Of a stretch of 64,000 nucleotides of DNA, positions 8,774-49,124 are shown piece by piece; the first letter of the stretch is position 1, and each line of letters begins with the position of its first letter. Origin of the DNA: Escherichia phage mistaenkt; the sequence record MN850587.1; one strand, 5' to 3'. The translations under genes were made by a program, and so were the position numbers. The notes beneath the pieces are model-generated. The model saw only the letters and a list, made by a program, of their open reading frames with translations, was not told where the DNA came from and made no database searches.

Positions 8774-9043
8774 CTACTTCCTCGTTTTGAGAACTGCCAT
8801 AATTTCTTTGGTATCTTCTAAGAACCATGTGTAGTGATTCTCTTTGATTTCTGGATGCGTGTCAATCTTTAATTTGCAATCTCTTCCAGTATCTTTAAGT
8901 TGAGTTGTAATACCCTTCATAAAGATATGACACATCACGTCATCCATAACCATTGGCATGAAGTCAATGCGCATGTAAGTATCTTTTGGTCTTGGAAGAA
9001 GTAAATAACCTTCTGTATAGAACAGTTCTGTCTCTTGACTCAT
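8774..9043 (-). CDS. Hypothetical protein (89 aa)
   Basis: ORF in operon context. Confidence 0.55.
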   Translation of the reverse strand: MSQETELFYTEGYLLLPRPKDTYMRIDFMPMVMDDVMCHIFMKGITTQLKDTGRDCKLKIDTHPEIKENHYTWFLEDTKEIMAVLKTRK

Positions 9044-9309
9044 TGCTGCTTATTCCCTAACAAAATCATATCAATCAAATTATTGGCTTTCATCGTACAC
9101 TGATAGTATCCATCACGATAAAATTCAAGGGCTTGTGACAGGTCTGTGCCTGTATTACCCTTGACAACATAGCGTGATTCTTCTTGAGTGTACTTATCAT
9201 TTTCACTTACTTGGGAGTTTTTGAACGTAGAGTTCACTTTGTTCATTGAACACCCTGACATAAGTATCAGTAGCACAAATGTTATAAAACTCTGGCTTAG
9301 TCTTTTCAT
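9040..9309 (-). CDS. Putative o-spanin (outer-membrane lipoprotein)
   Basis: Signal peptide with lipobox-like LILMSGC; short mature protein with one more Cys; overlaps the 3 prime end of the upstream TM protein gene in another frame. Confidence 0.45.
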   Translation of the reverse strand: MKRLSQSFITFVLLILMSGCSMNKVNSTFKNSQVSENDKYTQEESRYVVKGNTGTDLSQALEFYRDGYYQCTMKANNLIDMILLGNKQQ

Positions 9310-9550
9310 ATGTCAATACCTCTTTTGTGTGTTTGTTTTTAGCAAGCACATCTTTCAAATCATTTTTGTAACTGGAGCTAAGATTTGATAAACCTTCTTG
9401 GTAAGCATCCTTAGCAACACTGACAAGTTTCTGATTAGTTAACTCTGTTTGAGTGACTTGGTAATCCTTGTAAGAATAACCTCCCCAGACACCTACACCA
9501 ATCAGGAAAACAACTATGAAAGCGGCTTGACAGAACTCTTTAAATGTCAT
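9203..9550 (-). CDS. Putative i-spanin (N-terminal TM anchor, periplasmic helical domain)
   Basis: TM segment AAFIVVFLIGVGVWGGY then charged helical region; 107 bp overlap with the lipoprotein gene. Confidence 0.45.
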   Translation of the reverse strand: MTFKEFCQAAFIVVFLIGVGVWGGYSYKDYQVTQTELTNQKLVSVAKDAYQEGLSNLSSSYKNDLKDVLAKNKHTKEVLTYEKTKPEFYNICATDTYVRVFNEQSELYVQKLPSK

Positions 9551-30598: not shown

Positions 30599-31450
30599 TT
30601 AATCTTCAGTATCGAAATCTTCTTCGTCGTCGTCATCTGGGTCTGGCATATCATCGTCGTCATCGTCAGAGTTAGTATCTTCAGAATCCTTCGCATCTTC
30701 TTCGGTGATTTCACCGTTATCTTCAACGCCATCCAGACCAAGCAGAGCCAGTTCATCTTCATCCAGTTCAGGCTCACCGTTACCACCTGTACCACCAGTG
30801 TACGGAACCAGAGTATCAATGATAAACTGTTCCTGAATCGGCTTCGTCAGAACGTTGCTTTCAAAAGTGTAGAAGTGAGTTGCAAGAATCACACTACCAA
30901 ATGAACCGTTGCCGACTGCGATATCTGGGTGAATAACATCATAAGTTTTGTCGTCATCGTGTTTGTCAGAATGTTGAGCCTTGATTTTCTTCATCGGCTG
31001 TTTAACTGCAACACGCTTACCGTTAACTTCTTCAATCAGCATAACAGGGAATGACTGTTTCGCTGTCCAGACTGCACCATCTTTATAAGCAGCAGCACGA
31101 CTTACTTTCAGAATGTGATAAGTGTCTGCTTCAAATGGTGGTTTGCAACCGAACTTCTCTTCAAAGTCATCTGCATCAACAGCTTCAGTTGTAACCTTAT
31201 CCCAACCATCAGGATTCTTTTTAGACTTGGTGAACTCTTTGAAGAGTTTGTTACCATCTTTTGCCAGAATTGAAACACTGTAGTTACAATCTTTGCCTGG
31301 GAATTTCTTATCAACTGATTTACCTTTTCCCGGACGTGGAATAGTATTCAGGTAGTAGAACCAAACATCTTTTAGCAAGTAACGCAGAGTCTGACGTTCA
31401 GTACCGTTGTATTTTTCTACCGGAGATTTCATTTTAACAACTTTAGACAT
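30599..31450 (-). CDS. Putative single-stranded DNA-binding protein with acidic C-terminal tail
   Basis: C-terminus DSEDTNSDDDDDDMPDPDDDDEEDFDTED; adjacent to primase-helicase; start moved to the ATG at 31450 (MSKVVKM), which has an RBS. Confidence 0.55.
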   Translation of the reverse strand: MSKVVKMKSPVEKYNGTERQTLRYLLKDVWFYYLNTIPRPGKGKSVDKKFPGKDCNYSVSILAKDGNKLFKEFTKSKKNPDGWDKVTTEAVDADDFEEKFGCKPPFEADTYHILKVSRAAAYKDGAVWTAKQSFPVMLIEEVNGKRVAVKQPMKKIKAQHSDKHDDDKTYDVIHPDIAVGNGSFGSVILATHFYTFESNVLTKPIQEQFIIDTLVPYTGGTGGNGEPELDEDELALLGLDGVEDNGEITEEDAKDSEDTNSDDDDDDMPDPDDDDEEDFDTED

Positions 31451-36398: not shown

Positions 36399-39098
36399 AT
36401 GGAAAACGTAGATTTTGAAAACTTGCACTTGGTAGGTGATACCGAAACTGATGGGTTACTCCTTGAGTTCACAAAAGCACACGTAATGGCATTTGCAGAT
36501 TACAAAGATGACAGTGACGAACCTGCTGTGTGGGTCTTCACTGATGAACCTATTCTTGGTCACAAATGCACTAAGTACATTAAAGGTGGTCTTCGTGAAG
36601 GTGTAGAGTTTGCTCTTAAGGCAAAACGTCTCTGCATTCATAACGGCCTTGGCTATGACTGGTGGGTGTTCAATCACATTGCACCGGACTTATGGAACTT
36701 TGATAATCCGAAGTGTAAACCTTGGGGAGACTTCTTTCAGGATTCTCTTATCCAGTCTCGTGTTCAGTGGATGGATAGACCTACACCGAAAGGTTACAAA
36801 GGTGCTCATGGTTTGGCTGCATGGGGTGCTCGTGTTGGTGTTCGTAAACCAGAGATTGAAGAGTGGGGTGTTTGGAATGCTGATATTCTGAACCGTGTTG
36901 TTGAGGATATTCGAATCAACGCCAAAACTAAACGTGCTCTTGATAACGAATACCTGAAGCTGAAGAAGTGTGGTGTAGACACTTATGAAACCTACATGCG
37001 AGCTAAAGAAACATCTTTCTGGATGAGTCAGCAAGCTATCAACGGTTGGAAAGCTGATATTGAACTTATGCAGTTCCATGTCAAAGAACTTGACAGAATG
37101 ACTGATGAATTAGCTGCTGAAGTTGAGCCTCATCTGCCACCGACTATCAAGACGAAAGGTAAAGTTACTGGTGAAGAGTTTGCAAGGGCTTGGAACGAGT
37201 ATGTTGAGACATTTGGTGAAGCAGATGGTTTGAAGCGTATCACTAAGTATCCAAAAACTAAGTTCCGTCAGCAGGTTCGCAATGGTGAGATGCAGACTTA
37301 CGCTATCAAACCTTTTGGTAAGCCAACTACCAAGATTTTCAACATTGAGAAGCGTAACTGCTACACTCCAACTAATACGGTTACTGGAGAAGAGTACAAA
37401 GAAGGTTTCGTGGCAATGAAAGATGCTCGTGCAGTTTGTAACGAGTTGAATGCTGCGATTGATAAGAAGTGCAAAGACTGGAAGCCAGTTAAAACTGTGA
37501 AGACTGTGAAGTACTACAACAATCACGTAGTAAATCACTTTGAACTTGAGTCAAGTCGTTACACAGGTTTGATTGATGCACCTTATACACCGATTGAGTT
37601 TGAAGTTTCACGTATGACTCAGGTTGCTGTTGTGAAGGATTATCTGAAAACTCTTGGCTGGATTCCTGATGACTGGAACTACAAGAAAGATTCTGATGGT
37701 CGTCCGGTGAAGGTTTGTCGCTTCAAAGACAACAAGAAGATGATTCGTAAACATCCTAAATGGCAAGAGATGGTGGAACGTTGCGGATTGAACTATGTTG
37801 AACATGAAGGTGTACAGTACATCGAACACAACTGGTCTGTGAAGAAGTACACAGATTTGCTTGAACCTTGCTTGATTCGTACTTCACCGAAACTAACTGA
37901 ATCATCTTACGATACGATTGAAGGTGAACTTGGACAGAAGATTGCGAAGTACTATACTTTAATGCACCGACGCAGAACTATCGAGAACTCAAAGGATGAC
38001 GAAAAAGGTTGGTTAAACCAGATTCGTCCAGATGGTCGTTTGAGTGCTGGTGCAATGGTGTTTGGTACTTCAACTGGACGTATGACACAATATGGAATTG
38101 TGAACGTACCTTCTGGGGCTGCTGTTTATGGTGAACCAATGAGGGCAGTCTGGATTTGTGAAGAGGGAACCAACGTAGTATCCGTTGATATGAACTCTGC
38201 ACAGCTTGTTTTACTGTGTAACTTTATGGGCGATAAAGAGTTCACCAAAGCGGTAACTCAAGGTAAAGAAGAGATTGAGTTTATCCGTCAGGAAGATGGC
38301 AGATATTACTGCAAACACTTTGACGAATACCTGAATCCAGAAGTTGATAAGTATCTACGTTATGACTCTGAAAACGACTTGTACGTAGTTTATTCAGGTA
38401 CTGATGCTCATACACTGAACAGCATCTACTTCAGCTTGAACGAAGAACAAGATATATTGACTTGTCGTATGACTCAGGATGAAAATCTTCTTCACGAAAT
38501 TAGTAAAGGTCGTAAGAAAGCTAAGAATGGTATCTATGCGTTACTGTTCGGTGCTGGTGATGAGAAGTTTGCTAAGACGATTAAAGCTGCGACTACTCAA
38601 GAAGGTGCATTAACTAAACAGACTTACTTTGTTCGTTTACCGAAGATTAAGAAACTGTTAGATGACTTGGAAGCTGACTTTAAAGCAACTAAGAAAGCAC
38701 TCGAAGAGGTATTTGGTAAGACTGCTGCAATTGCTAAAGGTGGTTTTGTCAAGGTTGCTGGAGCATGGTTGTGGTGTAAGTCTCCACACAAACTGTTGAA
38801 CTACTTGCTGATGGGTTCAGAAGCACAAGTTCAGAATGAAGCAATCAACCTTGCATGTCGTCGTATGATTGATGAAGGTTTGATGAAGTTGAATGGTCGT
38901 AAGCCAGCTATCGGTGCTCGTTTACTCTGTGCATATCACGATGAAACAAGTTGGGAATGTCCAGAGAGCATGACAGCAGAAGTTAAGGCTGTAACTGACT
39001 GGTACTACGGACAAGCTTCTAAGAACTTAGGGCTTCGTAAAGAAACTCTGGTAACAGGGACTGGTAAAGTTGGTAAGTCTTGGTATGAGGTGCATTGA
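36399..39098 (+). CDS. DNA polymerase, family A (T7-like), with 3-5 exonuclease domain
   Basis: Exo I motif DTETDG near the N-terminus; KKAKNGIYALLFG and HDE motifs in the polymerase domain; 899 aa. Confidence 0.9.
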   Translation: MENVDFENLHLVGDTETDGLLLEFTKAHVMAFADYKDDSDEPAVWVFTDEPILGHKCTKYIKGGLREGVEFALKAKRLCIHNGLGYDWWVFNHIAPDLWNFDNPKCKPWGDFFQDSLIQSRVQWMDRPTPKGYKGAHGLAAWGARVGVRKPEIEEWGVWNADILNRVVEDIRINAKTKRALDNEYLKLKKCGVDTYETYMRAKETSFWMSQQAINGWKADIELMQFHVKELDRMTDELAAEVEPHLPPTIKTKGKVTGEEFARAWNEYVETFGEADGLKRITKYPKTKFRQQVRNGEMQTYAIKPFGKPTTKIFNIEKRNCYTPTNTVTGEEYKEGFVAMKDARAVCNELNAAIDKKCKDWKPVKTVKTVKYYNNHVVNHFELESSRYTGLIDAPYTPIEFEVSRMTQVAVVKDYLKTLGWIPDDWNYKKDSDGRPVKVCRFKDNKKMIRKHPKWQEMVERCGLNYVEHEGVQYIEHNWSVKKYTDLLEPCLIRTSPKLTESSYDTIEGELGQKIAKYYTLMHRRRTIENSKDDEKGWLNQIRPDGRLSAGAMVFGTSTGRMTQYGIVNVPSGAAVYGEPMRAVWICEEGTNVVSVDMNSAQLVLLCNFMGDKEFTKAVTQGKEEIEFIRQEDGRYYCKHFDEYLNPEVDKYLRYDSENDLYVVYSGTDAHTLNSIYFSLNEEQDILTCRMTQDENLLHEISKGRKKAKNGIYALLFGAGDEKFAKTIKAATTQEGALTKQTYFVRLPKIKKLLDDLEADFKATKKALEEVFGKTAAIAKGGFVKVAGAWLWCKSPHKLLNYLLMGSEAQVQNEAINLACRRMIDEGLMKLNGRKPAIGARLLCAYHDETSWECPESMTAEVKAVTDWYYGQASKNLGLRKETLVTGTGKVGKSWYEVH

Positions 39099-39610
39099 TG
39101 CAAGATTGTGGTTTTACTCATGAGCAATTAAAATCATGGATTCACTACGACCCCTTAACAGGTGTCTTAACTTGGATTGGTAGACCTCCTAACAGTGGTA
39201 GGGTGGTTATAGGCAGTCAAGCTGGGTCAATCAAAAGGACAAAATCTGGTGTGTATCTTCATACACAGATACTAGGTTACAGGACAGGGAATCACCGTAT
39301 TGCTTGGTTCTGGATGACTGGAAAATGGCCTGATAAACATATTGACCATAAGGATGGAGATGGTCTAAACAATGCTTGGGAGAATCTTAGAGAAGCCACG
39401 AAAGAGCAGAACATGGCTAACAGGAGACAACCTAGAACATCAAAGAGTTTAAAAGGCACAAGTAGAAGCAAATCTGGAAAGTGGATTGCACAGATTAACC
39501 ATAATGGAAAGACTAACCATATTGGCACATACATGACCGAGCAAGAAGCCCACGAAGCTTACTGTGAAGCTGCTATAAAACTCCACGGAGATTTTGCAAA
39601 ACTTAGTTGA
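39098..39610 (+). mobile_element. HNH homing endonuclease with AP2-type DNA-binding domain
   Basis: HIDHKDGDGLNNAWENLREATKEQN (HNH core), then GKWIAQINHNGKTNHIGTYMTEQEAHEAYCEAA (AP2-like); ATG overlaps the polymerase stop (TGATG). Confidence 0.75.
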
Positions 39611-39662
39611 CAAGGTGCTCATGGAAGAGTACCTTATACTATATATTGTATAGGAGACTTGT

Positions 39663-39863
39663 ATGACTATTTCAGAAATTGAAGTTCAACTGCAATGTGC
39701 TGGATATTCTCAAAGTGAGATTGAGGCTATGTGCATCATCATTTGCAGTAGCCATAAGCACCTCAAGCTTTCTAATGAAAATCTTTTCAAGGTTGATATT
39801 TTTATCGCTGGGGGCAAGATTATCAAGGATAAGACAGGCTACCTTAAAGGTGAACGTCTATGA
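39663..39863 (+). CDS. Hypothetical protein (66 aa)
   Basis: ORF. Confidence 0.5.
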   Translation: MTISEIEVQLQCAGYSQSEIEAMCIIICSSHKHLKLSNENLFKVDIFIAGGKIIKDKTGYLKGERL

Positions 39864-40069
39864 GCCATCGTGGAAGAACTCATCTTGCCATGATGCAAGG
39901 GGCTTCAAAAGAGACTATCAAGAATCGGAAGAAAACTCTTTTTGACAGAATGAATAGACTCATTGATAATGCAAGTCTACCTAACTCTGAAAAGGTTTTC
40001 TTGAAAGGGAATCTGAAGAGTATTGCACAGGAACTTATTGATATTGAATTTTGGAGACACCAAAAATGA
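39860..40069 (+). CDS. Hypothetical basic protein (69 aa)
   Basis: ORF with overlapping stop-start. Confidence 0.5.
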   Translation: MSHRGRTHLAMMQGASKETIKNRKKTLFDRMNRLIDNASLPNSEKVFLKGNLKSIAQELIDIEFWRHQK

Positions 40070-40317
40070 GCAATAAAGAGCAAGAAGCTTTAGCAATCTT
40101 CAAGAGTGAAGACAAATCAATAGCTTTTGTCTCAGAGGCTTGGTGCAGAGATTTGGGGTATGATTGGTATCTCTTCTTATGCGCTAAGAAAGATGTTAAG
40201 CCAGTTGATGAAACCCGATTCAAAGAACTGTATAATGTCTGCCAAGATGGTTATGAAGAACATTACAAAGGTTCTTTGAATCCTGTAAATTCAAAAGCTT
40301 CAGATTTATTTTATTGA
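40066..40317 (+). CDS. Hypothetical protein (about 83 aa)
   Basis: ATG at 40066 after a GGAG SD; track start 40051 is TTG. Confidence 0.5.
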   Translation: MSNKEQEALAIFKSEDKSIAFVSEAWCRDLGYDWYLFLCAKKDVKPVDETRFKELYNVCQDGYEEHYKGSLNPVNSKASDLFY

Positions 40318-40327
40318 GAGGTTTAAA

Positions 40328-40573
40328 ATGTTAAAATTATTGATACCAGCTTTAGCAGTCCTACTGGTTGGGTGTAACCCTTCTTATGAGAATAAGGATG
40401 CTTCTTACAGACTTCCTCCAGAAATGCAAGACTGCAAGATTTATAAGCCTAATGGTGATGCCATTAGCAGGGATGTTATTGTAGTTCGCTGCCCAAATTC
40501 TCAGACGACAACTTCTTACAAGTATGGGAAGAATAGTCAGTCACACGCCACAGTTTTTGATGAGGGATATTGA
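40328..40573 (+). CDS. Small lipoprotein (81 aa)
   Basis: Signal peptide MLKLLIPALAVLLVGC with canonical lipobox LVGC; mature part about 65 aa with 2 Cys. Confidence 0.6.
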   Translation: MLKLLIPALAVLLVGCNPSYENKDASYRLPPEMQDCKIYKPNGDAISRDVIVVRCPNSQTTTSYKYGKNSQSHATVFDEGY

Positions 40574-40574
40574 T

Positions 40575-40781
40575 ATGCAGGTTCTGGTAAACTTTATCTA
40601 TAAGTATGAAAACATCTTCAGCACTATGACTGTAGCTCAACGCAATCCAGTTATTCCCCGAGAAGGGGAGACTGTTGAGATTAATGATTGGAACTACAGA
40701 GTTGAAGAGGTCAAGCATAAACTTAAAGATGGTTATGACCACCAAGTTGTAAATGTGTATTTAAAAGGTAAGTGGCAATGA
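40575..40781 (+). CDS. Hypothetical protein (about 68 aa)
   Basis: ATG at 40575 after a GAGGGA SD. Confidence 0.5.
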   Translation: MQVLVNFIYKYENIFSTMTVAQRNPVIPREGETVEINDWNYRVEEVKHKLKDGYDHQVVNVYLKGKWQ

Positions 40782-41020
40782 GTAGAGAAGACCAGTTAAT
40801 TGATATGCAAAATGACAAAAATGAGGCAATATCCATAATCCCAATATTGTGGGGGCATGACTGCACATATGGTAACTATCTGTGTGTTTGTGAAGACCGA
40901 AACATTGAACCCGTAAGCCGTAATGAGTATCAAAAACACTTAAAGGCTCTTGACAATTACTTCACAGATAATAAATGCTCTCAGATTTCAAGTGAGGTCT
41001 TGCATGAAGATTTTTATTAA
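40772..41020 (+). CDS. Hypothetical Cys-containing protein (82 aa)
   Basis: ORF. Confidence 0.5.
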   Translation: MAMSREDQLIDMQNDKNEAISIIPILWGHDCTYGNYLCVCEDRNIEPVSRNEYQKHLKALDNYFTDNKCSQISSEVLHEDFY

Positions 41021-41101
41021 AGTTATTGATGAAGATTTTGGAGGGTGCTCTTGGCACTCATTTTTCACAAAAGGTTGTCTAGCTTGTGAGGCACGTAATA
41101 A

Positions 41102-42202
41102 ATGACAATTCTGTACAAACAAAATAAAGATGGTTCTTTCAACGTCTGGTCATGCGTTGCTGTAGGTGACAAAGTGGTTACCACGTATGGCAAAGAAAAC
41201 GGTAAAATGATGTTTGAAGAGTACACAGCAGAACCGAAGAACATCGGTAAAAAGAATGAGCGTAATGCTGAACAGCAAGCTCTCTTTGAAGTTACTGCTA
41301 AGTATAAGAAGCAAGTTGACCGTAAAGGTTATGCTTATTCAAAATCTGCTGCACAGGAAGTTGAGAAGGTTGGTGTACAGCTTGCTCATGATGCTTCCAA
41401 GGTTAGCCACAAAAAATATCTGAAATTTCCTGCTGATGCTCAACCGAAACTTGATGGTGTTCGTTGCAGAATTTCAAGGGATGTTGATTCAGTAAGCTTC
41501 ACAGCTTATTCTCGTGAAAATACTGTTTACAATGTGCCTGAAGAGTTAATTCCTGATTTGCTTCTCATGCTTAAGTGTCACCCACAAGTTGAAGACTTTG
41601 ACGGTGAGATTTATGCTCATGGCTGGGACTTAGAAGATATTGTATCCATGATTAAGAATGCTGACAATCCAGACCGTCACCTTCTTAAATTCTACTGGTA
41701 TGATATCTGTGACAATACTAAATCATGGCCTGAGCGACGAGAGGTTATTGATAACTCACCTATCGTTGAACTTGGTGATGCTTGCAGGGTTGTTCCTGTA
41801 CAGACTATCCGTGTAAACTCTTGGGAAGAGTTCGACAAAGCCCATGATAATTGGGTTAAGCTGAAGTTTGAAGGGGCTATGTACCGTTCAATCTCTGAAG
41901 AATCTTTCTACGAGTGTAGTCACCGTTCATACTTCTTAATCAAGCATAAGAAGATGCACACTGAAGAGTTTAAAGTAACTGGTGTGAAGACTGATAAGCG
42001 TGGACATGGTAAGTTTGTTGTAGAGACTCTTCCTAACGTCTTTGTGGATGTTTCATGGAAGACTACCCATGAGAAGAAACAGTATCTTGCTGAACACCCT
42101 GAAGAGTTTATCGGGAAGCCTTTGACGGTTCAGTTCCAGAAGATGACTCGCAAGGGGTCTTTGCAGTTCCCTGTTGGGTTAGTTATTAGAGATTATGAAT
42201 AA
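41102..42202 (+). CDS. ATP-dependent DNA ligase
   Basis: Nucleotidyltransferase motif I KLDGVRC (adenylation lysine); 366 aa. Confidence 0.85.
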   Translation: MTILYKQNKDGSFNVWSCVAVGDKVVTTYGKENGKMMFEEYTAEPKNIGKKNERNAEQQALFEVTAKYKKQVDRKGYAYSKSAAQEVEKVGVQLAHDASKVSHKKYLKFPADAQPKLDGVRCRISRDVDSVSFTAYSRENTVYNVPEELIPDLLLMLKCHPQVEDFDGEIYAHGWDLEDIVSMIKNADNPDRHLLKFYWYDICDNTKSWPERREVIDNSPIVELGDACRVVPVQTIRVNSWEEFDKAHDNWVKLKFEGAMYRSISEESFYECSHRSYFLIKHKKMHTEEFKVTGVKTDKRGHGKFVVETLPNVFVDVSWKTTHEKKQYLAEHPEEFIGKPLTVQFQKMTRKGSLQFPVGLVIRDYE

Positions 42203-42208
42203 AAGTTG

Positions 42209-42236
42209 TTGACATACTCTCTCCGGTAGTTATACT
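42209..42236 (+). promoter_or_regulatory. Strong sigma70-like promoter (TTGACA-16-TATACT) within an inverted repeat
   Basis: -35 at 42209-42214, -10 at 42231-42236; 9 bp inverted repeat CCGGTAGTT (42223-42231) / AACTACCGG (42260-42268). Confidence 0.55.
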
Positions 42237-42286
42237 AGCAATATAAAATTTGATATAGGAACTACCGGATGAGTTAGGAGAAGAAA

Positions 42287-42667
42287 ATGAAAAAGATTAT
42301 GGTAGGTGTCATTCTGGCAACTCTGAGTTTTGGTGCATCAGCTATGAAGATGCCTGAAGCAGACTTTAGCAAGGTCTCTACAGAGGCTTGTCAGATTGTT
42401 CGTAAAGTCGTAACAGATGCTGGAGAGTTGGCTAAACCGTTATCTTCTCCAACTGTCATGGAAATGTCTGACCGCATCACTGATTACAATTATCGTGTGA
42501 TGGCAGATTACTACGAAGCTGTCTCTGATGCTATGGTCACTCAGGATATTGATTTGCTTGATGACAAAGACATTGAGAAGGTTGAAGACACCAAGCGTGA
42601 CATGATGGATGAAACTTTCAAAGGTGTTCATTATTTTGTTGAAAAGCGTACTTGTGTAGGTCTATGA
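42287..42667 (+). CDS. Putative secreted or periplasmic protein (126 aa)
   Basis: Signal peptide MKKIMVGVILATLSFGASA; acidic mature region. Confidence 0.6.
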   Translation: MKKIMVGVILATLSFGASAMKMPEADFSKVSTEACQIVRKVVTDAGELAKPLSSPTVMEMSDRITDYNYRVMADYYEAVSDAMVTQDIDLLDDKDIEKVEDTKRDMMDETFKGVHYFVEKRTCVGL

Positions 42668-42668
42668 T

Positions 42669-42872
42669 ATGAAGAAGAATCGTTGCAAGAAGAACTATGG
42701 AGAAGTGCTTGACGATGAAGGTCATGTCATCTTCCGAGTTTACTGTGCAGATGACTCTGAAGTAGATAAAGCACTTGATGACTATATCAACGGTACTCGT
42801 GAAAACGTCAGAGCAACAAACATAGATTCATTGATTGACACTTCCAGAAAACGGAGGAAGAAAGATGAATGA
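42669..42872 (+). CDS. Hypothetical protein (67 aa)
   Basis: ORF. Confidence 0.5.
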   Translation: MKKNRCKKNYGEVLDDEGHVIFRVYCADDSEVDKALDDYINGTRENVRATNIDSLIDTSRKRRKKDE

Positions 42873-43164
42873 AGTCTTTGACCCTTACGCCCCACAAGAT
42901 AAGTGGGAAGCTGATAGAGAGTATGAGATGGAAAGTTATATCTGCCCAATGGATGTAGACGAAATGAGAGAGTTCGTTGCATTCCGTTTTGAAAAAGAAA
43001 TTGAGAAAAGAAAACTTTCTCAGGCACAAGTTGCAAAGATTTGTGATATCTCTCAAAGTCGTGTTTCCAACATAGTCAATGGTACTGGAAAGATTACCCT
43101 TGAATACATGTTGAAAGCTTGTGAAAAACTTGGTGTTAACTTCAACTTAAGGCTGTCAGATTAA
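42865..43164 (+). CDS. XRE-family helix-turn-helix DNA-binding protein
   Basis: LSQAQVAKICDISQSRVSNIVNG helix-turn-helix; ATG at 42865 with SD. Confidence 0.6.
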   Translation: MNEVFDPYAPQDKWEADREYEMESYICPMDVDEMREFVAFRFEKEIEKRKLSQAQVAKICDISQSRVSNIVNGTGKITLEYMLKACEKLGVNFNLRLSD

Positions 43165-43165
43165 T

Positions 43166-43525
43166 ATGAAACGTGAAAATGCAATCTTCAAAGGTAACTT
43201 TGCAATTGGCTTCTATGGGAAACCTACCGAAGCTGAGAAGGTGTGGGGGCATGAGATTCTTGAAGAGATGATTCCAAAACTCCAAAAAGGAGAAATAAAA
43301 CATTCTGAAAAGAATCGTGTGAAAGGTTATATGGCAATTGGTTCAGCTATATCCAACATCAAACTTGAGACGACATGTGCAAAAGATGTTCGTAACTCAT
43401 TTATAAAGGAACTCTTCAACAACCTTGATGGTGTAGATGCTACCGCTATCTGGCTTGATGTTGATGGTGCTAAGTATACAACTTTCGTATTTAAAAATGA
43501 GGATATCAAATGTCTCTTCCCGTAA
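43166..43525 (+). CDS. Hypothetical protein (119 aa)
   Basis: ORF. Confidence 0.6.
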   Translation: MKRENAIFKGNFAIGFYGKPTEAEKVWGHEILEEMIPKLQKGEIKHSEKNRVKGYMAIGSAISNIKLETTCAKDVRNSFIKELFNNLDGVDATAIWLDVDGAKYTTFVFKNEDIKCLFP

Positions 43526-44010
43526 AAATTGACTTGTTCTTCGGATACAATCTGATGACAGGATGTATGCTTAGTCTTCCAAAGTCTCCTTATCGTACTG
43601 AGAAAGGTGCTGTGAAACGTGCTGCACACTACAATAATGACTTAGGTCGTTTGCAGACGATTTACAAGTGGCTTGAAGAAGATGGTCGAGTAAATGAGTA
43701 CTTCCATAAACTTCGTATGGCTAACGAAGAAAATAAGATGGGCTATGAACTGTTCCCACGTCTTTACAAAGTGACTTCACCAACTTCTCAAACTTGGAAT
43801 GAGAAGTCTATTGAGGGTTACAAAAAGGTCACAATGTCTCCGTTTAGTAGTGGTGCAGAGTTTGAGAAGCTACGTGAGATAATTTATCAGACTGTTGCAA
43901 AGCGTGTTGCAAAGGGTCTTTCTTATAATGAAAAGATTGACTGGAACACTCAAAAGGTTATACAATTCTTTGCATACGATAATGACAAACAAACTTTTGT
44001 AGAGGTTTAA
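43510..44010 (+). CDS. Hypothetical protein (166 aa)
   Basis: ORF. Confidence 0.6.
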   Translation: MSLPVKIDLFFGYNLMTGCMLSLPKSPYRTEKGAVKRAAHYNNDLGRLQTIYKWLEEDGRVNEYFHKLRMANEENKMGYELFPRLYKVTSPTSQTWNEKSIEGYKKVTMSPFSSGAEFEKLREIIYQTVAKRVAKGLSYNEKIDWNTQKVIQFFAYDNDKQTFVEV

Positions 44011-44011
44011 C

Positions 44012-44530
44012 ATGAAGATTGGAAATAGCTTAACAGAGCCAGAAGCAATTCTACTTAAGGGTGTTATCAAAGAACATCTGAAAAATCGTAGACTTCAAGA
44101 GGGCACAATCCTTATTGAGACAAACTATGAAGCTGGAACGATTGAGTTTCTTGATGAAGATACTGGTGATGCACTTTGCCTTTTACCAACTCACCTCTTC
44201 ACTACTGAATTTCGAGATTCTAAATCAATCTCTGTGAAGCTGGTTCCAAGCATTGAGTTGTATGAAGGTATGCAATACCCACGTAGCTTCAAAGCTTTAC
44301 TTAACATCTTCATAGACGACATTGTAGATTTAGTAAGGCCAGAAGCTGGTGAGTATGTAATTACTGCTGAGTGTCAGAATAGCAGCTACATCACTCTCGC
44401 TGGTAATCTCTCAACGATGAACTTCTTAGATTTCATCCCGAAACACTTTGAAGACTTCCTTTCATCGTGTGGTGATGACCTTGATTTCATTGTAAAACTG
44501 GAACAAGAATATAAGGTGAATAAGAAATGA
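44012..44530 (+). CDS. Hypothetical protein (172 aa)
   Basis: ORF. Confidence 0.6.
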   Translation: MKIGNSLTEPEAILLKGVIKEHLKNRRLQEGTILIETNYEAGTIEFLDEDTGDALCLLPTHLFTTEFRDSKSISVKLVPSIELYEGMQYPRSFKALLNIFIDDIVDLVRPEAGEYVITAECQNSSYITLAGNLSTMNFLDFIPKHFEDFLSSCGDDLDFIVKLEQEYKVNKK

Positions 44531-44823
44531 AAATCTTTAAAGTTGAACACTGTTACATGCAGAGTGGTGAGCCAATTCGTTGTCCACATTGTGGTGGCAC
44601 AGACTTCCAAGGTGAGGTTACAGATATCATCTCTGGTCATGTAGCAGAAGAGTATACTCGTTGCCGTGGTTGTATGAAGATTGTTTCATTTTGGGCTTAT
44701 GGAAGTTATGAGCCACACCCACACATTATTTACCATCCAGTTAAAGTGGTTAAGAACGTCATCAACTGGTTTATCATTAAGGGTTTTTCAAATGATTCGT
44801 TTAGTATTTGCAAGTGGTCGTAA
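44527..44823 (+). CDS. Small zinc-ribbon protein (98 aa)
   Basis: CPHCGG ... CRGC cysteine pairs; 3 prime end overlaps the DHFR start. Confidence 0.5.
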   Translation: MKIFKVEHCYMQSGEPIRCPHCGGTDFQGEVTDIISGHVAEEYTRCRGCMKIVSFWAYGSYEPHPHIIYHPVKVVKNVINWFIIKGFSNDSFSICKWS

Positions 44824-45337
44824 AGGTGAGTTTGGTACTCCTGATGGGATGCCTTGGGAACGTAATCGTGAAGATATGAAAGAGTTTAAAAAGCTGACTC
44901 AAAACCAGCTTGTAATCATGGGTAACGAAACTTTCAAGACTCTTGGACGAAAACCTTTACCAAATCGTGAGAACATGATTCTGACAAACAACCTCCCATA
45001 TTACGGGATAGACTTTGATAATGATGGCTTTGTATTTGCGAAGGTTGACCCAGATTCTTTTGGTGCATTCTTGAAGAAGATTGACAGCCAGATTGATGAA
45101 AACGTATGTGTGATTGGTGGTGCAAACATCTTAAAAGCAGCTTTACCGTTTGCTGATGAAGTTTACCACACAGTTATCTATGAAATTACTAAAGAGCCAA
45201 CTGTGTATCTTCCTGAAGAGGGATTCTTTGAGTATTTACACGAGCCTGAACTCTTTGCTAGAATACAGGCTAAACCTCTGGCTGATAAATCTGGGGTTGT
45301 AAATTTCTATGTTCCACAAGTAAGAGGACGTTTCTGA
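44792..45337 (+). CDS. frd: Dihydrofolate reductase
   Basis: N-terminal MIRLVFASGRKGEFGTPDGMPWE pattern typical of DHFR; immediately upstream of thymidylate synthase; start moved to ATG 44792. Confidence 0.8.
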   Translation: MIRLVFASGRKGEFGTPDGMPWERNREDMKEFKKLTQNQLVIMGNETFKTLGRKPLPNRENMILTNNLPYYGIDFDNDGFVFAKVDPDSFGAFLKKIDSQIDENVCVIGGANILKAALPFADEVYHTVIYEITKEPTVYLPEEGFFEYLHEPELFARIQAKPLADKSGVVNFYVPQVRGRF

Positions 45338-45338
45338 T

Positions 45339-46235
45339 ATGTCACAAGCAGATGTAAGCTACAAAAATATTCTGAACCATGTTTTAACAGTTGGTGAGCA
45401 GCGTAAAACCCGAACTGGTTCTGTAATTTCAACGTTCTCACCTCCAGAGTTTCGTTTTGATATGCGTACTGGTTTCCCTTTACTGACCTCTAAACAGGTT
45501 CTGACCAGACAAGTTATCGGGGAAGCTTTATGGTTCTTGAACGGTGAGAATAAACTTGGTCATCTTCGCTATCGTACTTGGGGAGAAAACGATGGAGAGC
45601 GTTGGACAATCTGGACAAATGACTTTGAACGCTGGCTTAAAACAACCTATGCAAGTGAGCAAGATTGGTTAGATGATGCAGGTGGACGAATCTACGGTGT
45701 TCAGTGGAGAGCCTCAGAAGGTCATGGTGGCGTTACAGTTGACCAGCTAGACAATCTGATTACCAAGATGAAAAAGTCTCCTACAGACCGTTACATGCTG
45801 GTTAACGCTTGGAATGCTGCTGATATCTCAGCTAACACAATGGCATTACCACCTTGTCATGTACTTTTCCAGATTTACATCTCGAATACTGGTGAAGTGG
45901 ATTTAAAATGGTATCAACGTTCTGTAGACAGCTTTTTAGGTTTACCATTTAACATTGCATCTTATGGTTTTATCTTGGAAGTGCTTTGTAAGATGACTGG
46001 ATATACACCTCGTTACTTGATTGGTACTTTTGGTGATACTCAGATTTATCAGAACCATATGAATCAGGTATTCCAGCTTTTAGGTAATGAAGAGTTTCCT
46101 GCACCGAAGTTTGAGATTGTTCAAGATTTGAAATGTCTGGATGACCTCAAGCATATGACTGCAAGTGACTTTATCGGTGGTTTCAAAGATTATCGACATG
46201 CAGGGAAGATTGAAGCTCCCTTGTCAGTAGGTTGA
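45339..46235 (+). CDS. thyA: Thymidylate synthase
   Basis: Active-site block ALPPCHVLFQ (catalytic Cys). Confidence 0.9.
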   Translation: MSQADVSYKNILNHVLTVGEQRKTRTGSVISTFSPPEFRFDMRTGFPLLTSKQVLTRQVIGEALWFLNGENKLGHLRYRTWGENDGERWTIWTNDFERWLKTTYASEQDWLDDAGGRIYGVQWRASEGHGGVTVDQLDNLITKMKKSPTDRYMLVNAWNAADISANTMALPPCHVLFQIYISNTGEVDLKWYQRSVDSFLGLPFNIASYGFILEVLCKMTGYTPRYLIGTFGDTQIYQNHMNQVFQLLGNEEFPAPKFEIVQDLKCLDDLKHMTASDFIGGFKDYRHAGKIEAPLSVG

Positions 46236-46248
46236 TAGATACAAAAAA

Positions 46249-46268
46249 GGCTCCTTTTTACGGGAGCC
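46249..46268. terminator. Bidirectional rho-independent terminator between convergent operons
   Basis: GGCTCC-TTTTTACG-GGAGCC with T-runs on both strands. Confidence 0.75.
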
Positions 46269-46274
46269 TTAAAC

Positions 46275-46649
46275 TTATTTTTTCTTAGCATTTTGAGTGT
46301 TCTGTTCAGTGATTGCTTGCAAAGCCGATACAGACTGTGCTAGGTTATTAACACTGTCAGAGAATTTATCAAGGGTTTTGGTCAACTTGGCGTTTTCACC
46401 CTTTACGTTCTCTAGCTGAACCTTCTGGTTCTCCATGCCTAATTGCAGGAGTTTCATGTCAGACTGTAAATCACGAATAGCTGAATAGTTGCTTTTGTTG
46501 TAACTATCAAGCTGTTGTAACTTTGTCGAAACGGAAACTTCCTGCTTCCCACTAGACACCTGCATTGTAGTGTACATACCAATTACACTGAAGATACCCA
46601 CAACAATTGCACCAATATTATTTTTGAAAGCATCCTCTAACCATCTCAT
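46275..46649 (-). CDS. Membrane-anchored coiled-coil protein (124 aa); possible lysis or fibre-associated function
   Basis: TM segment IGAIVVGIFSVIGMY then a long heptad-like helix; last gene of the late operon. Confidence 0.5.
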   Translation of the reverse strand: MRWLEDAFKNNIGAIVVGIFSVIGMYTTMQVSSGKQEVSVSTKLQQLDSYNKSNYSAIRDLQSDMKLLQLGMENQKVQLENVKGENAKLTKTLDKFSDSVNNLAQSVSALQAITEQNTQNAKKK

Positions 46650-46922: not shown

Positions 46923-49124
46923 TTACGCCGTTCTAACCCATGCCATCAATCTGATAAACAAGTTCACAACACTGAATGCTGAACCAGAACCTGTACCACC
47001 AGTGTTACCACTAACTGTGTGGGTGTGAGCACCAATACCAACTGTGTGAGCATGGTTACCAGCAGAAGCAGCAGAACCACTTACAGAGTGAGTATGAGCA
47101 CCAGTAGTGTTAGAGGTCTTCGTACCATAGTCAAAGCTACTCGTTGTAGCGGAGAAGCTGTGAGTGTGTGAAGGAATATGCCCTACAGATAATGTCACAG
47201 TGTCTGCACCACCAACTGACTTCACATCTGAACCATTCGCTGCACCGATTCTAACTGTTCTACCTACACCCTCATTCAGATACGTCCAAGTCATACCTGC
47301 AAGAGTTGTGTTAGGGTTCTGGTTAGTAGCAAACCATGTTACAATCCCAACTGGATAGACTTTCTTAAGGTCTGTTGAAGATGTAACAGCCGTAGCAATC
47401 TTCTGGTCAGTTTCTGCTTTGGTGTATGCACCAATTTCAGAAGGTGTTGGTTTCTGTGCTTCTGTATAAATCTTAGACCAATCTGCTTCAAAACCATAGC
47501 TATCCCTAGCCGACCTGTACCACATCCCACCATTTTTATAGTTGAATTTCAACTGAGCAGACGGTGTTGATGATGCACCCTGATACATATGGTAGACCAG
47601 TTGTGTTGAGCCACCAGTTGAAAATGTAACATTGTACAAACCTGTCTTGGCATTCCATGCTACGCCATCTCCACCATTCTGTTCAGTGGCATTGCCTGAT
47701 GAGCCAGCAAGCATAAATCTAGAGTTAGCTGCTGTCTGTGTGAAGTATCTCGCATCCAAGTTACCCCAATCAGAAGGTTTCACCTGTCCAGTAATCTGTA
47801 AAGATTTAGACAGAAGAATCTCATCAGACAAGTCAATTCTCGCACCAGTTAAGTAGTTATGGAAAGATGCAACCACAGAGCCATTTGTACCACAACCAAC
47901 ATACCACTTATTAGTGTTATCAGTGTTCTTTCCAACAATGTAAGAAGCATTGTTCTGGACTTTGCTGTAAATCCTTAAAGCTTCACCGTCAGACTGAATA
48001 TTTTGTTGAAGGGTGAATGTGTTAGCTTCATTCTTCTTAGCAAGGTTAGCATATGTACCAACCAACACATAACGAGAGTCAATGTTAGCCCAATCTGTAG
48101 GCTGAACCTGTCCAGTAATTGCAAGGCTCTTGTTCACTCTGACCATGTTATCAAGCAATACATAGGTATCATTTGAGATGTTTGTCAATACAACTGAGTT
48201 GCTACCATCTGCATAGTTACCTACAGCCCACTTCATAGAAGCATCTGTGTTCTGACCTTCAATGTAAAGTGCTTTACCAGTTGTCAAGTTCTTCAGGGTT
48301 AATCTTGCACCGTCACCAAGTAACGTTGTAGTCCCTCTGAAGGTGTTGTTTCCAGTAATCGTGTTAGCTGCTGCCAACTGAACAAATCTTTGGTCTGCTG
48401 CATCACGAGTATAGAATCTTGCATCGAAGTTTGCAAAGTCTGAAGGAACAACCTGTCCAGCAACTTGAAGCTGCTTGTTAATACCTACAGAACCAGTACC
48501 AAGAACAATATTAGTATTCTGTTTGGTGTTTGCAATAGTAACGTCAGAACCAGAACTCAAGTTACCAATTGTGAACCTTACAGCGTTTGCTGTATCACGA
48601 CCTTCATAATACAATGCAGCCGCAGCAGTGTTCTTCAAAGTCAAACCAGCATTATCTGTCTGGAAAATCTGACTTGCTGTAAAGGTATTTTGAGTTCCCT
48701 TGATAGCAAATCTTGCATCGTTCTCATCATTAGTTCTCATCCCAAGTTCATTGGGAGATGGCTTATTCAGAGTGTGATAAACAGTTGCACTTCTTGAAGC
48801 ATCTGCAATAGTCAGTTTAAGACCATTTGCATTAAGCTTGAAAGTTTTTGCAGTGTCACCGAAGACAATTTCGGAGTTACCTGTTGGGTCAAGTAAATCT
48901 TTTCCCCCATAGGTAAGCTTCACAATTCCTAAATTACCTGTCATGGTTCCACCAACTAATTGCAGAAATCTTTCCAGTCTAAATGATGCAAGGAAATCTG
49001 CATAAGTCATTCTACGGTCTTCATCACCTAGCATCTCAGTTCTTTTCTTAACTCTGACATGCAATAGGTCATCAGAACGAATCTCACTAATCGAGTTTAA
49101 TTCACTCAATTTAAATTCTGCCAT
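46923..49124 (-). CDS. Long tail fibre protein with His-x-His repeat tip
   Basis: 733 aa; C-terminal HTHSFS, HTHSVS, NHAHTV, GAHTHTVS repeats and conserved terminal motif shared with ORF 49167-50315. Confidence 0.8.
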   Translation of the reverse strand: MAEFKLSELNSISEIRSDDLLHVRVKKRTEMLGDEDRRMTYADFLASFRLERFLQLVGGTMTGNLGIVKLTYGGKDLLDPTGNSEIVFGDTAKTFKLNANGLKLTIADASRSATVYHTLNKPSPNELGMRTNDENDARFAIKGTQNTFTASQIFQTDNAGLTLKNTAAAALYYEGRDTANAVRFTIGNLSSGSDVTIANTKQNTNIVLGTGSVGINKQLQVAGQVVPSDFANFDARFYTRDAADQRFVQLAAANTITGNNTFRGTTTLLGDGARLTLKNLTTGKALYIEGQNTDASMKWAVGNYADGSNSVVLTNISNDTYVLLDNMVRVNKSLAITGQVQPTDWANIDSRYVLVGTYANLAKKNEANTFTLQQNIQSDGEALRIYSKVQNNASYIVGKNTDNTNKWYVGCGTNGSVVASFHNYLTGARIDLSDEILLSKSLQITGQVKPSDWGNLDARYFTQTAANSRFMLAGSSGNATEQNGGDGVAWNAKTGLYNVTFSTGGSTQLVYHMYQGASSTPSAQLKFNYKNGGMWYRSARDSYGFEADWSKIYTEAQKPTPSEIGAYTKAETDQKIATAVTSSTDLKKVYPVGIVTWFATNQNPNTTLAGMTWTYLNEGVGRTVRIGAANGSDVKSVGGADTVTLSVGHIPSHTHSFSATTSSFDYGTKTSNTTGAHTHSVSGSAASAGNHAHTVGIGAHTHTVSGNTGGTGSGSAFSVVNLFIRLMAWVRTA

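What the first reader, a model, noticed from the sequence alone, without database searches (positions are those of the whole stretch)
40328..40573. Small lipoprotein in the replication-gene operon: superinfection-exclusion candidate
An 81 aa protein has a canonical lipobox (LLVGC) and a short mature domain with two Cys. Small phage lipoproteins expressed early can block the phage's own receptor, as T5 Llp does, or alter the envelope.
Basis: inference. Interest (0 to 1): 0.5.

Follow-up and report, generated by a model that had tools for sequence, protein, structure and literature searches.

The report
Orphan early lipoprotein of lytic phages
This is a real gene for a small membrane-anchored lipoprotein that many lytic phages of Gram-negative bacteria carry among their early genes, but its function is untested and it is not a relative of the known T5 receptor-blocking lipoprotein.

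Summary
Window 40328-40573 (+) encodes an 81-aa protein with a lipoprotein signal peptide (lipobox L-V-G-C16) and a 66-aa mature domain with two more Cys (C36, C55). The window is a Felix O1-like myovirus, and the gene lies between DNA polymerase and DNA ligase.

The protein belongs to PHROG 902 / Pfam DUF4884, an uncharacterised family. I found 495 clusters at 90% identity and 1,197 representatives at 50%. All 188 members with the core motif keep the lipobox, and Cys spacing is fixed. The mature domain is under purifying selection.

Homologues sit alone in non-structural regions of at least six unrelated lytic phage groups. None was found in plasmids, E. coli genomes or GTDB genomes. Phage SUSP1 lacks exactly this gene, so it is accessory.

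It is not an Llp/Cor homologue: only the signal peptide aligns, the disulfide layout differs, and the gene is not next to a receptor-binding gene. Ounavirinae use LPS, not a protein receptor. It is not the o-spanin, which lies at 9040-9550.

My best reading is inferred: a periplasm-facing envelope effector that binds a conserved host envelope component. Superinfection exclusion is possible but untested. Blocking the phage's own receptor is disfavoured.

The parts
40328..40573 (+). Coding sequence of the 81-aa prolipoprotein (stop codon included); member of PHROG 902 / Pfam DUF4884
   Evidence: ORF list; phrog_902 E 8.1e-17; 495 and 1,197 homologous clusters; precomputed PF16225:DUF4884 label on homologues
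40316..40321 (+). Shine-Dalgarno GAGAGG, 6 nt upstream of the ATG, overlapping the TGA stop (40315-40317) of the upstream gene
   Evidence: read directly from the sequence
40328..40372 (+). Signal peptide, residues 1-15 (MLKLLIPALAVLLVG): K3 n-region, hydrophobic core, lipobox L13-V14-G15 before C16
   Evidence: sequence; lipobox present in 188/188 homologues; dN/dS about 0.8 here, as expected for a signal peptide
40373..40375 (+). Codon TGT for Cys16, the predicted lipid-modified first residue of the mature protein; +2 residue is Asn, +3 is Pro (no Asp Lol-avoidance signal)
   Evidence: invariant column in alignments A1-A4; +2 residue statistics
40376..40570 (+). Mature domain after the lipid Cys (65 residues): conserved Y-x-L-P, D35-C36, V-V-R-C55-P-N-S-x-T, K68; predicted small five-strand beta domain
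   Evidence: alignments; AF2 models with pLDDT 67.8 and 65.2; mature-domain dN 0.10 with saturated dS
40433..40435 (+). Cys36 codon (TGC), invariant; inferred disulfide partner of Cys55
   Evidence: invariant in A2 and A3; 20-21 residues from the lipid Cys in 169/188 members; lies at the start of strand 37-42, which pairs with strand 50-55 in the model
40490..40492 (+). Cys55 codon (TGC) within the V-V-R-C-P-N-S core motif; inferred disulfide partner of Cys36
   Evidence: invariant in A2, at least 90% in A3; C2-C3 spacing of 17-19 in 169/188 members
36399..46270 (+). Context: rightward replication and nucleotide-metabolism transcription unit (DNA polymerase, HNH-AP2 endonuclease, small ORFs, lipoprotein, ligase and further genes) ending at a bidirectional terminator at 46247-46270
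   Evidence: ORFs and family hits; terminator scan; same layout, with no internal terminator annotated, in phage Michonne

Best explanation
Shown: a genuine, translated accessory gene of a Felix O1-like virulent myovirus. It encodes a small prolipoprotein of the uncharacterised family PHROG 902 / Pfam DUF4884. Inferred from the sequence features: the precursor is exported by Sec and lipidated on Cys16 by Lgt/LspA/Lnt. [quoted passage not shown] The 66-residue mature part folds into a small beta domain pinned by a Cys36-Cys55 disulfide and sits close to the membrane, with only about three residues between the lipid Cys and the first predicted strand. Inferred from genomic position: it is made early or in the middle of infection together with the replication enzymes. 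Inferred mechanism: it acts as a periplasm-facing binder of a host envelope component that is conserved across Gammaproteobacteria. In this way it remodels or seals the envelope of the already infected cell, for example against entry by further phages or other envelope-crossing agents, rather than masking the phage's own receptor. I put about 0.9 on the identity as a lipoprotein of this family, and about 0.35-0.4 on the functional part (an envelope effector acting through a conserved host target).
For: ORF, RBS and tight operon packing. Family membership: phrog_902 E 8e-17, and the DUF4884 label on all homologues. Family size: 495 clusters at 90% identity and 1,197 representatives at 50%. Lipobox in 188/188 members, an even number of extra Cys in 185/188, fixed Cys spacing, and a +2 residue that is mostly not Asp. 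Purifying selection on the mature domain and relaxed selection on the signal peptide. Homologues lie in non-structural, replication-type regions of Vibrio Demerecviridae, Acinetobacter Obolenskvirus, Yersinia/Erwinia/Serratia jumbo phages, Klebsiella Stephanstirmvirinae and uncultured large phages. No neighbour gene is conserved, so it works as a stand-alone module. No hit in plasmids, E. coli complete genomes or GTDB genomes, so it is carried by virulent phages rather than prophages. The gene is cleanly absent from SUSP1 between orthologous flanking genes, so it is accessory. General anatomy resembles T5 Llp: a small beta-rich, disulfide-bonded lipoprotein on the periplasmic side, with a 61-aa mature form (PMC9586334; bioRxiv 10.64898/2026.03.26.714494).
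Against: There is no experimental datum for any family member. Structure models are only moderately confident (pLDDT 65-68) and match nothing solved, so no binding partner can be proposed. About 16% of members have Asp at +2. In enterobacteria that would keep them in the inner membrane, which fits poorly with a single outer-membrane-embedded target. Early expression is inferred from gene order only; the promoter scan is not above chance. Exclusion or envelope protection is one of several roles compatible with the data.
Confidence: 0.4

Rival explanations
1. Llp/Cor-type receptor jammer. The lipoprotein binds the periplasmic face of an outer-membrane protein (a TonB-dependent transporter or porin) and allosterically closes its surface loops. 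This would block either this phage's own receptor or that of competing phages and colicins.
For: Same general anatomy as T5 Llp: a small lipoprotein with a roughly 60-66 aa mature beta-rich domain, two Cys and probable outer-membrane sorting (PMC9586334). The domain starts almost directly after the lipid Cys in the model, so it would be held at the membrane surface.
Against: No homology beyond the signal peptide, and it does not hit phrog_1119. No Llp or Cor structure was retrieved from PDB or BFVD. The disulfide is central (mature C21-C40) rather than linking the termini as in Llp (C11-C58). The gene is not next to a receptor-binding gene. Ounavirinae bind LPS, not proteins (PMC8594841; PMC13196588). 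The domain is conserved across phages of six or more host genera and is under purifying selection. The annotation table of T1-like phage Henu8 lists both a Cor and a DUF4884 protein, which suggests non-redundant roles, though I did not verify this independently.
Confidence: 0.15
2. Envelope stabiliser or enzyme inhibitor. The lipoprotein binds and inhibits a periplasmic or membrane-associated host enzyme (such as a lytic transglycosylase, endopeptidase or protease) or an envelope-stress sensor, keeping the infected cell intact and productive until programmed lysis.
For: A conserved target across Gammaproteobacteria is implied by the wide distribution and purifying selection. The mixed predicted anchoring, with Asp at +2 in 16% of members, fits a target reachable from either membrane. 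A second exported protein of unknown function (42287-42667) lies in the same operon.
Against: No similarity to known lysozyme or transglycosylase inhibitor families (Ivy, MliC, PliC/PliG) or to any Pfam, NCBIfam or PADLOC family. No fold match. The gene is dispensable, as SUSP1 lacks it.
Confidence: 0.2
3. Lysis component: either the outer-membrane spanin subunit (Rz1-like) or a regulator of lysis timing.
For: It is a small phage lipoprotein, with a weak phrog_456 'Rz-like spanin' hit (E 0.058) limited to residues 3-41.
Against: The window already has an overlapped spanin pair: i-spanin 9203-9550 (-), phrog_1152 E 1.4e-37, with an out-of-frame lipoprotein ORF at 9040-9309 (-). Neither neighbour of the 40328 gene has a transmembrane i-spanin character. 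The gene is in the replication operon, not near the holin (46275-46649). Only 5 of 66 mature residues are Pro. Spanin-aware annotators left the Michonne and Mushroom orthologues as hypothetical.
Confidence: 0.05
4. Counter-defence: the lipoprotein neutralises an envelope-associated host defence or abortive-infection sensor.
For: It is an accessory, patchily distributed, single-gene cassette in the early regions of virulent phages, a pattern typical of anti-defence genes.
Against: No PADLOC or other hit links it to a known system. Most known anti-defence proteins are cytoplasmic. Strong sequence conservation across hosts is unusual for arms-race genes.
Confidence: 0.1
5. Spurious ORF or non-functional remnant.
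For: Some GenBank relatives leave the gene unannotated. The lipobox pattern alone has a noticeable false-positive rate.
Against: Hundreds of homologous clusters share invariant Cys and lipobox. dN/dS is 0.16. There is a good RBS and operon packing.
Confidence: 0.01

Closest known systems
PHROG 902 / Pfam PF16225 (DUF4884), an uncharacterised lipoprotein family
   Same: Direct sequence membership. The phrog_902 hit (E 8e-17) covers residues 1-76. All close and distant homologues carry the precomputed DUF4884 label. Lipobox, Cys spacing and the V-V-R-C-P-N-S core are shared.
   Different: Nothing differs in kind; this is an ordinary member. The local, older Pfam copy did not report the family, so the Pfam assignment rests on the precomputed annotation. 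The family has no known function.
T5 Llp / Cor superinfection-exclusion lipoproteins (phrog_1119; PDB 8A60, 7QJF)
   Same: A small phage lipoprotein of about 60-66 mature residues, beta-rich, with two Cys and a periplasm-facing anchor, encoded by a virulent phage and probably made before lysis (PMC9586334).
   Different: The mature domains share no detectable sequence similarity. It belongs to a different PHROG. The disulfide topology differs (central hairpin versus termini). The gene is not adjacent to the receptor-binding protein gene. The host receptor of the phage group is LPS rather than a TonB-dependent transporter (PMC8594841). The family spans many host genera.
Rz1-type o-spanins
   Same: A small outer-membrane lipoprotein encoded by a phage of Gram-negative hosts.
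   Different: It is not paired with an i-spanin gene, is not Pro-rich, and is not in a lysis cassette. A separate spanin pair exists at 9040-9550 (-).
T4 Spackle (Sp) and Imm, the superinfection-exclusion proteins of a virulent myovirus
   Same: Functional analogy only: envelope-located proteins made early by a virulent myovirus that act after adsorption and independently of the receptor. This rests on my own knowledge, not on a test here.
   Different: Sp is a soluble periplasmic protein and Imm an inner-membrane protein; neither is a lipoprotein. No similarity was seen in any family or fold search.

Membership tests
Bacterial-type lipoprotein (Lgt/LspA/Lnt substrate) | N-terminal signal peptide with a positive n-region, a hydrophobic core, and a lipobox [LVI][ASTVI][GAS]C with the Cys at position 15-35 | tested here: met
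   K3, LLIPALAVLLV, L-V-G-C16; it matches the PS51257-like rule; the lipobox is conserved in 188/188 homologues
Bacterial-type lipoprotein (Lgt/LspA/Lnt substrate) | Actual diacylglyceryl modification and globomycin-sensitive cleavage | not testable with these tools
   Needs labelling, globomycin treatment or mass spectrometry
PHROG 902 / Pfam DUF4884 | Significant match to the family profile over most of its length | tested here: met
   phrog_902 E 8.1e-17, residues 1-76. Unmarked PF16225:DUF4884 hits are on record for homologues. The local Pfam hmmscan found nothing, probably because it uses an older release.
PHROG 902 / Pfam DUF4884 | Family architecture: lipobox Cys, a second Cys 20-21 residues later, a third Cys 17-19 residues after that within V-V-R-C-P, and a mature length of about 67 residues | tested here: met
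   The window protein has C16, C36 (+20) and C55 (+19), with a 66-aa mature form
T5 Llp / Cor superinfection-exclusion lipoproteins (phrog_1119) | Sequence or profile similarity of the mature domain | tested here: not met
   hhalign aligns only 18 signal-peptide columns. hmmsearch against 8a60_B matches profile positions 1-18 only, E 2.8. phmmer with Llp against the window ORF gives E 0.63. Llp hits phrog_1119; the window protein does not.
T5 Llp / Cor superinfection-exclusion lipoproteins (phrog_1119) | Disulfide joining the N- and C-terminal parts (Llp C11-C58), required for receptor binding | tested here: not met
   The two Cys lie at mature positions 21 and 40 and bracket a central hairpin. 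Llp data come from PMC9586334 and bioRxiv 10.64898/2026.03.26.714494.
T5 Llp / Cor superinfection-exclusion lipoproteins (phrog_1119) | Gene placed next to the receptor-binding or tail-tip gene whose receptor it blocks | tested here: not met
   llp is divergent from pb5 in T5. The window gene lies between polymerase and ligase; the tail-fibre ORFs start at 46923, about 6.3 kb away on the other strand.
T5 Llp / Cor superinfection-exclusion lipoproteins (phrog_1119) | The phage uses an outer-membrane protein, typically a TonB-dependent transporter, as receptor | tested here: not met
   From the literature only: Ounavirinae target LPS and not protein receptors (PMC8594841 section 17; PMC13196588). 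The receptor of this particular phage was not determined.
T5 Llp / Cor superinfection-exclusion lipoproteins (phrog_1119) | Shared fold | tested here: inconclusive
T5 Llp / Cor superinfection-exclusion lipoproteins (phrog_1119) | Confers exclusion of phage infection when expressed | not testable with these tools
   Needs plating and adsorption assays
Rz1-type o-spanin | Lipoprotein gene embedded in, overlapping or adjacent to an i-spanin (Rz) gene | tested here: not met
   The neighbours are phrog_9065 and phrog_4427, neither a spanin. The true pair is at 9040-9550 (-).
Lambda Bor / other named phage lipoproteins in Pfam and NCBIfam | Profile match | tested here: not met
   No Pfam or NCBIfam hit other than lipid-attachment-site motifs

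The most novel reading that the evidence does not exclude
DUF4884 lipoproteins are a widespread, so far unrecognised class of receptor-independent envelope effectors of virulent phages. They would be anchored at the periplasmic face of the outer membrane and use their conserved edge strand (V-V-R-C-P-N-S-x-T-x-T-x-Y) to bind a universally conserved envelope machine such as Bam, Lpt, Lol or the Tol-Pal/TonB systems. This would shut the infected cell to secondary phage DNA entry, colicins or tailocins irrespective of the surface receptor.
Probability: 0.15. Interest if true: 0.7.

Novelty: new member of a known kind. Interest (0 to 1): 0.35.

Why it matters
If the function were worked out, it would annotate more than a thousand protein clusters that are now labelled hypothetical in lytic phages of Enterobacteriaceae, Vibrio, Acinetobacter, Aeromonas and others, many of them phage-therapy candidates. 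A receptor-independent envelope effector from virulent phages would be a second mechanism beside Llp/Cor for lipoprotein-mediated takeover of the envelope. It could affect how phages in cocktails interfere with each other. As it stands, the gene is an ordinary member of a catalogued family of unknown function.

Tried and rejected
1. Pfam, NCBIfam and PADLOC scans of the protein and of 90 homologues gave only lipid-attachment-site motifs and noise.
2. PDB sequence searches with the single protein and with the profile gave only signal-peptide matches (PqiC, FlgP, Llp).
3. Two AF2 predictions (full length with 90 sequences; mature domain with 119 sequences) both reached only pLDDT 65-68.
5. A search for a conserved partner gene next to distant homologues found none.
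The single-protein scan found no relative. The degenerate V-V-R-C-P-N-S-x-T DNA pattern gave 28 hits, all chance.
7. I tried to verify that Cor and DUF4884 coexist in a T1-like phage. pSf-1 has a Cor-like lipoprotein but no DUF4884 member, so the claim rests on the Henu8 annotation table only.
8. I hoped for CRISPRi-ART fitness data from SUSP1, but SUSP1 lacks the gene.
9. A consensus-sequence tblastn was less sensitive than the native sequence.
10. The o-spanin reading was rejected.
11. The weak InsA zinc-ribbon hits (E 0.008-0.1, well below cut-off) were rejected as noise from the C-P-N-S...G-K segment.

Full report
**Observation**

Window 40328-40573 (+) has an ATG start and encodes 81 aa: MLKLLIPALAVLLVGC|NPSYENKDASYRLPPEMQDCKIYKPNGDAISRDVIVVRCPNSQTTTSYKYGKNSQSHATVFDEGY.

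- It has a short n-region with one Lys, an 11-residue hydrophobic core and the lipobox L-V-G-C16. Two further Cys (C36, C55) lie in the 66-residue mature part.
- A GAGAGG Shine-Dalgarno sits 6 nt upstream and overlaps the stop codon of the preceding gene. The following gene starts 1 nt after the stop. The gene is therefore packed into an operon.
- The lipobox motif by itself is only modest evidence. A PROSITE-like rule hits 5 of 248 ORFs in the window against 0.66 in shuffles, and some of those hits are clearly spurious.
- Conservation makes the observation solid (see below).

**Genome and neighbourhood**

The window is a Felix O1-like myovirus of the Ounavirinae. The 3.3-kb region is 96% identical to Enterobacteria phage CHB7 and about 91% identical to Citrobacter phage Michonne (Mooglevirus).

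- The gene lies on the rightward strand between the family-A DNA polymerase (36399-39098) and the ATP-dependent DNA ligase (41102-42202). An HNH-AP2 homing endonuclease (39095-39610) and several small ORFs of unknown function lie in between.
- The unit continues through a Cro/C1-type regulator, DHFR and thymidylate synthase to a bidirectional terminator at 46247-46270.
- Early or middle expression is inferred from this position. The promoter scan is not above chance, and I found no transcriptome for these phages.

**Family**

- The protein matches PHROG 902 (unknown function, E 8e-17).
- Every homologue in the large protein collection carries the precomputed label PF16225 = DUF4884 as a strong hit.
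- The local Pfam copy did not report this family. Its version numbers are older than those of the precomputed hits, which may explain the gap.
- A profile search found 495 clusters at 90% identity. It found 1,197 representatives at 50% identity with E <= 1e-3, of which 643 had E <= 1e-10.
- Among the 188 retrieved members with the V-x-R-C-P core:
  - all have a lipobox;
  - the lipid Cys to second Cys distance is 20-21 residues in 169;
  - the second to third Cys distance is 17-19 in 169;
  - 185 have an even number of non-lipid Cys, as expected for periplasmic disulfides;
  - the median mature length is 67.
- Nearly invariant positions are P30, D35, C36, V52, V53, R54, C55, P56, S58, T60 and K68.
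- The +2 residue after the lipid Cys varies (E 35, D 31, N 28, S 25, G 19, T 18 and others). The window protein has Asn-Pro. By the enterobacterial +2 rule (established knowledge) this predicts outer-membrane sorting for it and for most members. About 16% carry Asp.

**Selection and dispensability**

- Among six Ounavirinae from Salmonella, E. coli, Shigella and Citrobacter hosts, dN/dS for the whole gene is about 0.16.
- The signal peptide is relaxed (about 0.8). The mature domain has dN 0.10 with saturated dS.
- Ligase gives 0.09 and the small neighbours 0.09-0.29.
- This is purifying selection, not the diversification expected of a component that tracks a variable receptor.
- The gene is nevertheless dispensable. 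Phage SUSP1 (Suspvirus) has orthologues of both flanking genes separated by 8 nt, with no lipoprotein gene.

**Distribution**

- tblastn finds the protein in 546 phage records. These include Ounavirinae, Vibrio Demerecviridae, Acinetobacter Obolenskvirus and ~100-kb Acinetobacter myoviruses. They also include Yersinia, Erwinia and Serratia jumbo phages, Klebsiella Stephanstirmvirinae, Escherichia phage 4MG and Aeromonas phages.
- In each locus I inspected, the gene sits among small non-structural or DNA-metabolism genes, never in a tail or lysis module. No neighbour is shared between lineages.
- I found no homologue in plasmids (tblastn) and none in 5,426 complete E. coli genomes at DNA level.
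- I also found none in GTDB species representatives. A close-relative scan and a codon-restricted degenerate pattern gave 28 hits, all chance.
- Within the limits of those searches, the family is a stand-alone accessory gene of virulent phages of Gram-negative bacteria.

**Structure**

- AF2 with 90 and 119 homologues gave the same small five-strand beta topology but only moderate confidence (mean pLDDT 67.8 and 65.2).
- In the model C36 begins strand 37-42 and C55 ends the paired strand 50-55, which fits a C36-C55 disulfide. This is an inference, as I had no access to coordinates.
- The first strand starts three residues after the lipid Cys, so the domain would be held close to the membrane.

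**Comparison with T5 Llp**

The Llp sequence I recalled was verified as 100% identical to T5 llp.

- Llp belongs to phrog_1119, "Cor superinfection exclusion protein". The window protein does not hit that family.
- Profile-profile and profile-sequence comparisons align only the signal peptide.
- Llp has a C11-C58 disulfide tying its termini. [quoted passage not shown]
- Here the Cys pair is central, and the gene is about 6 kb from the tail fibres.
- Ounavirinae recognise LPS rather than proteins (PMC8594841 section 17; PMC13196588).
- Membership in the Llp/Cor family therefore fails. The specific idea of blocking the phage's own receptor from the periplasmic side is disfavoured.
- The claim "it works like an Llp on some other outer-membrane protein" is lowered but not excluded.

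**o-spanin rival**

The window contains a typical overlapped spanin pair elsewhere. The i-spanin is at 9203-9550 (-) (phrog_1152, E 1.4e-37), with an out-of-frame lipoprotein ORF at 9040-9309 (-). The 40328 gene has no i-spanin neighbour and is not Pro-rich. The o-spanin reading is rejected.

**Literature**

DUF4884 appears only as an annotation label, in a T1-like phage table and a Bacteroides proteomics table. Searches on Felix O1-like phages and lipoproteins found no functional work. The Henu8 table lists both a DUF4884 protein and a Cor protein in one T1-like genome. If correct, this argues that the two lipoproteins are not redundant, but I could not verify it.

**Verdict**

- Shown: a real, conserved, accessory lipoprotein gene of family PHROG 902 / DUF4884, carried singly in the early or replication regions of many virulent phages. 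It is not homologous to Llp/Cor and is not the spanin.
- Inferred: lipidation, outer-membrane sorting, a C36-C55 disulfide and early expression.
- Most likely mechanism, at about 0.35-0.4: a periplasm-facing binder of a host envelope component conserved across Gammaproteobacteria that remodels or seals the infected cell's envelope. Exclusion of secondary infection is one plausible outcome.
- Rivals: an Llp-like jammer of a heterologous outer-membrane protein (0.15), an inhibitor of a periplasmic enzyme or stress sensor (0.2), counter-defence (0.1), and a lysis role (0.05).
- The finding is an ordinary member of a catalogued family of unknown function. Its interest lies in the size and phage-restricted distribution of that family and in how easily the hypotheses can be tested.

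Noticed in passing
window 9040-9550 (-): Overlapped Rz/Rz1-type spanin pair. The i-spanin is at 9203-9550 (115 aa, phrog_1152 E 1.4e-37). A lipoprotein ORF at 9040-9309 (89 aa, MKRLSQSFITFVLLILMSGC|S..., phrog_4180) overlaps it in another frame. The pair lies far from the putative holin at 46275-46649 (-).
   Followed up: partly
window 42287-42667 (+): A 126-aa protein with a cleavable Sec-type signal peptide (MKKIMVGVILATLSFGASA) and no lipobox, in phrog_4332 (unknown function). It is a second exported protein in the same rightward operon, just after the ligase. Among the loci compared it was found only in the Mooglevirus relatives, with dN/dS about 0.28.
   Followed up: partly
window 40051-40317 (+) and 40778-41020 (+): The 88-aa gene upstream of the lipoprotein and the 80-aa gene two genes downstream both match phrog_9065 (E 4.6e-49 and 2.2e-07). 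A pair of diverged paralogues therefore flanks the lipoprotein and the 68-aa gene.
   Followed up: no
L046 (Escherichia phage SUSP1, NC_028808) 30793-31235: SUSP1 lacks the lipoprotein gene precisely. Orthologues of the flanking genes (gp043, gp042) are 8 nt apart. This is a natural single-gene presence/absence polymorphism within Ounavirinae.
   Followed up: yes
window 39095-39610 (+): An HNH-AP2 homing endonuclease whose TTG start overlaps the stop of the DNA polymerase gene. Most relatives align only from about 600 nt into the query, so this endonuclease region is variable among Ounavirinae. In Salmonella phage Mushroom the polymerase is annotated in two pieces.
   Followed up: no
homologues P0001-P0120; window 40328-40573: The precomputed Pfam label PF16225 (DUF4884) is attached to every homologue. 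A live hmmscan against the local Pfam-A copy reports no such hit, even at E 10. The version numbers suggest the local library is an older release.
   Followed up: partly
L013 (Escherichia phage pinkbiff) 2501-2701; also JK55, ECML-1, KhF1-3: Several GenBank Felixounavirus records have no CDS annotated over the lipoprotein gene, or an overlapping CDS in its place. The gene is therefore missed by some annotation pipelines.
   Followed up: no
P0010 (89 aa, 81.9-kb contig): One family cluster has Tyr in place of the third Cys (VVRYPNS) while keeping the second Cys. It is the only exception seen to the Cys pair among the close homologues.
   Followed up: no
L017 (Shigella phage pSf-1) 45529-45759 (-): A 76-aa lipoprotein (MKELIAVLIAAVALTGC|AQNLKNGDC...), annotated as hypothetical, lies right after the tail genes. 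This is the position typical of Cor in T1-like phages.
   Followed up: no
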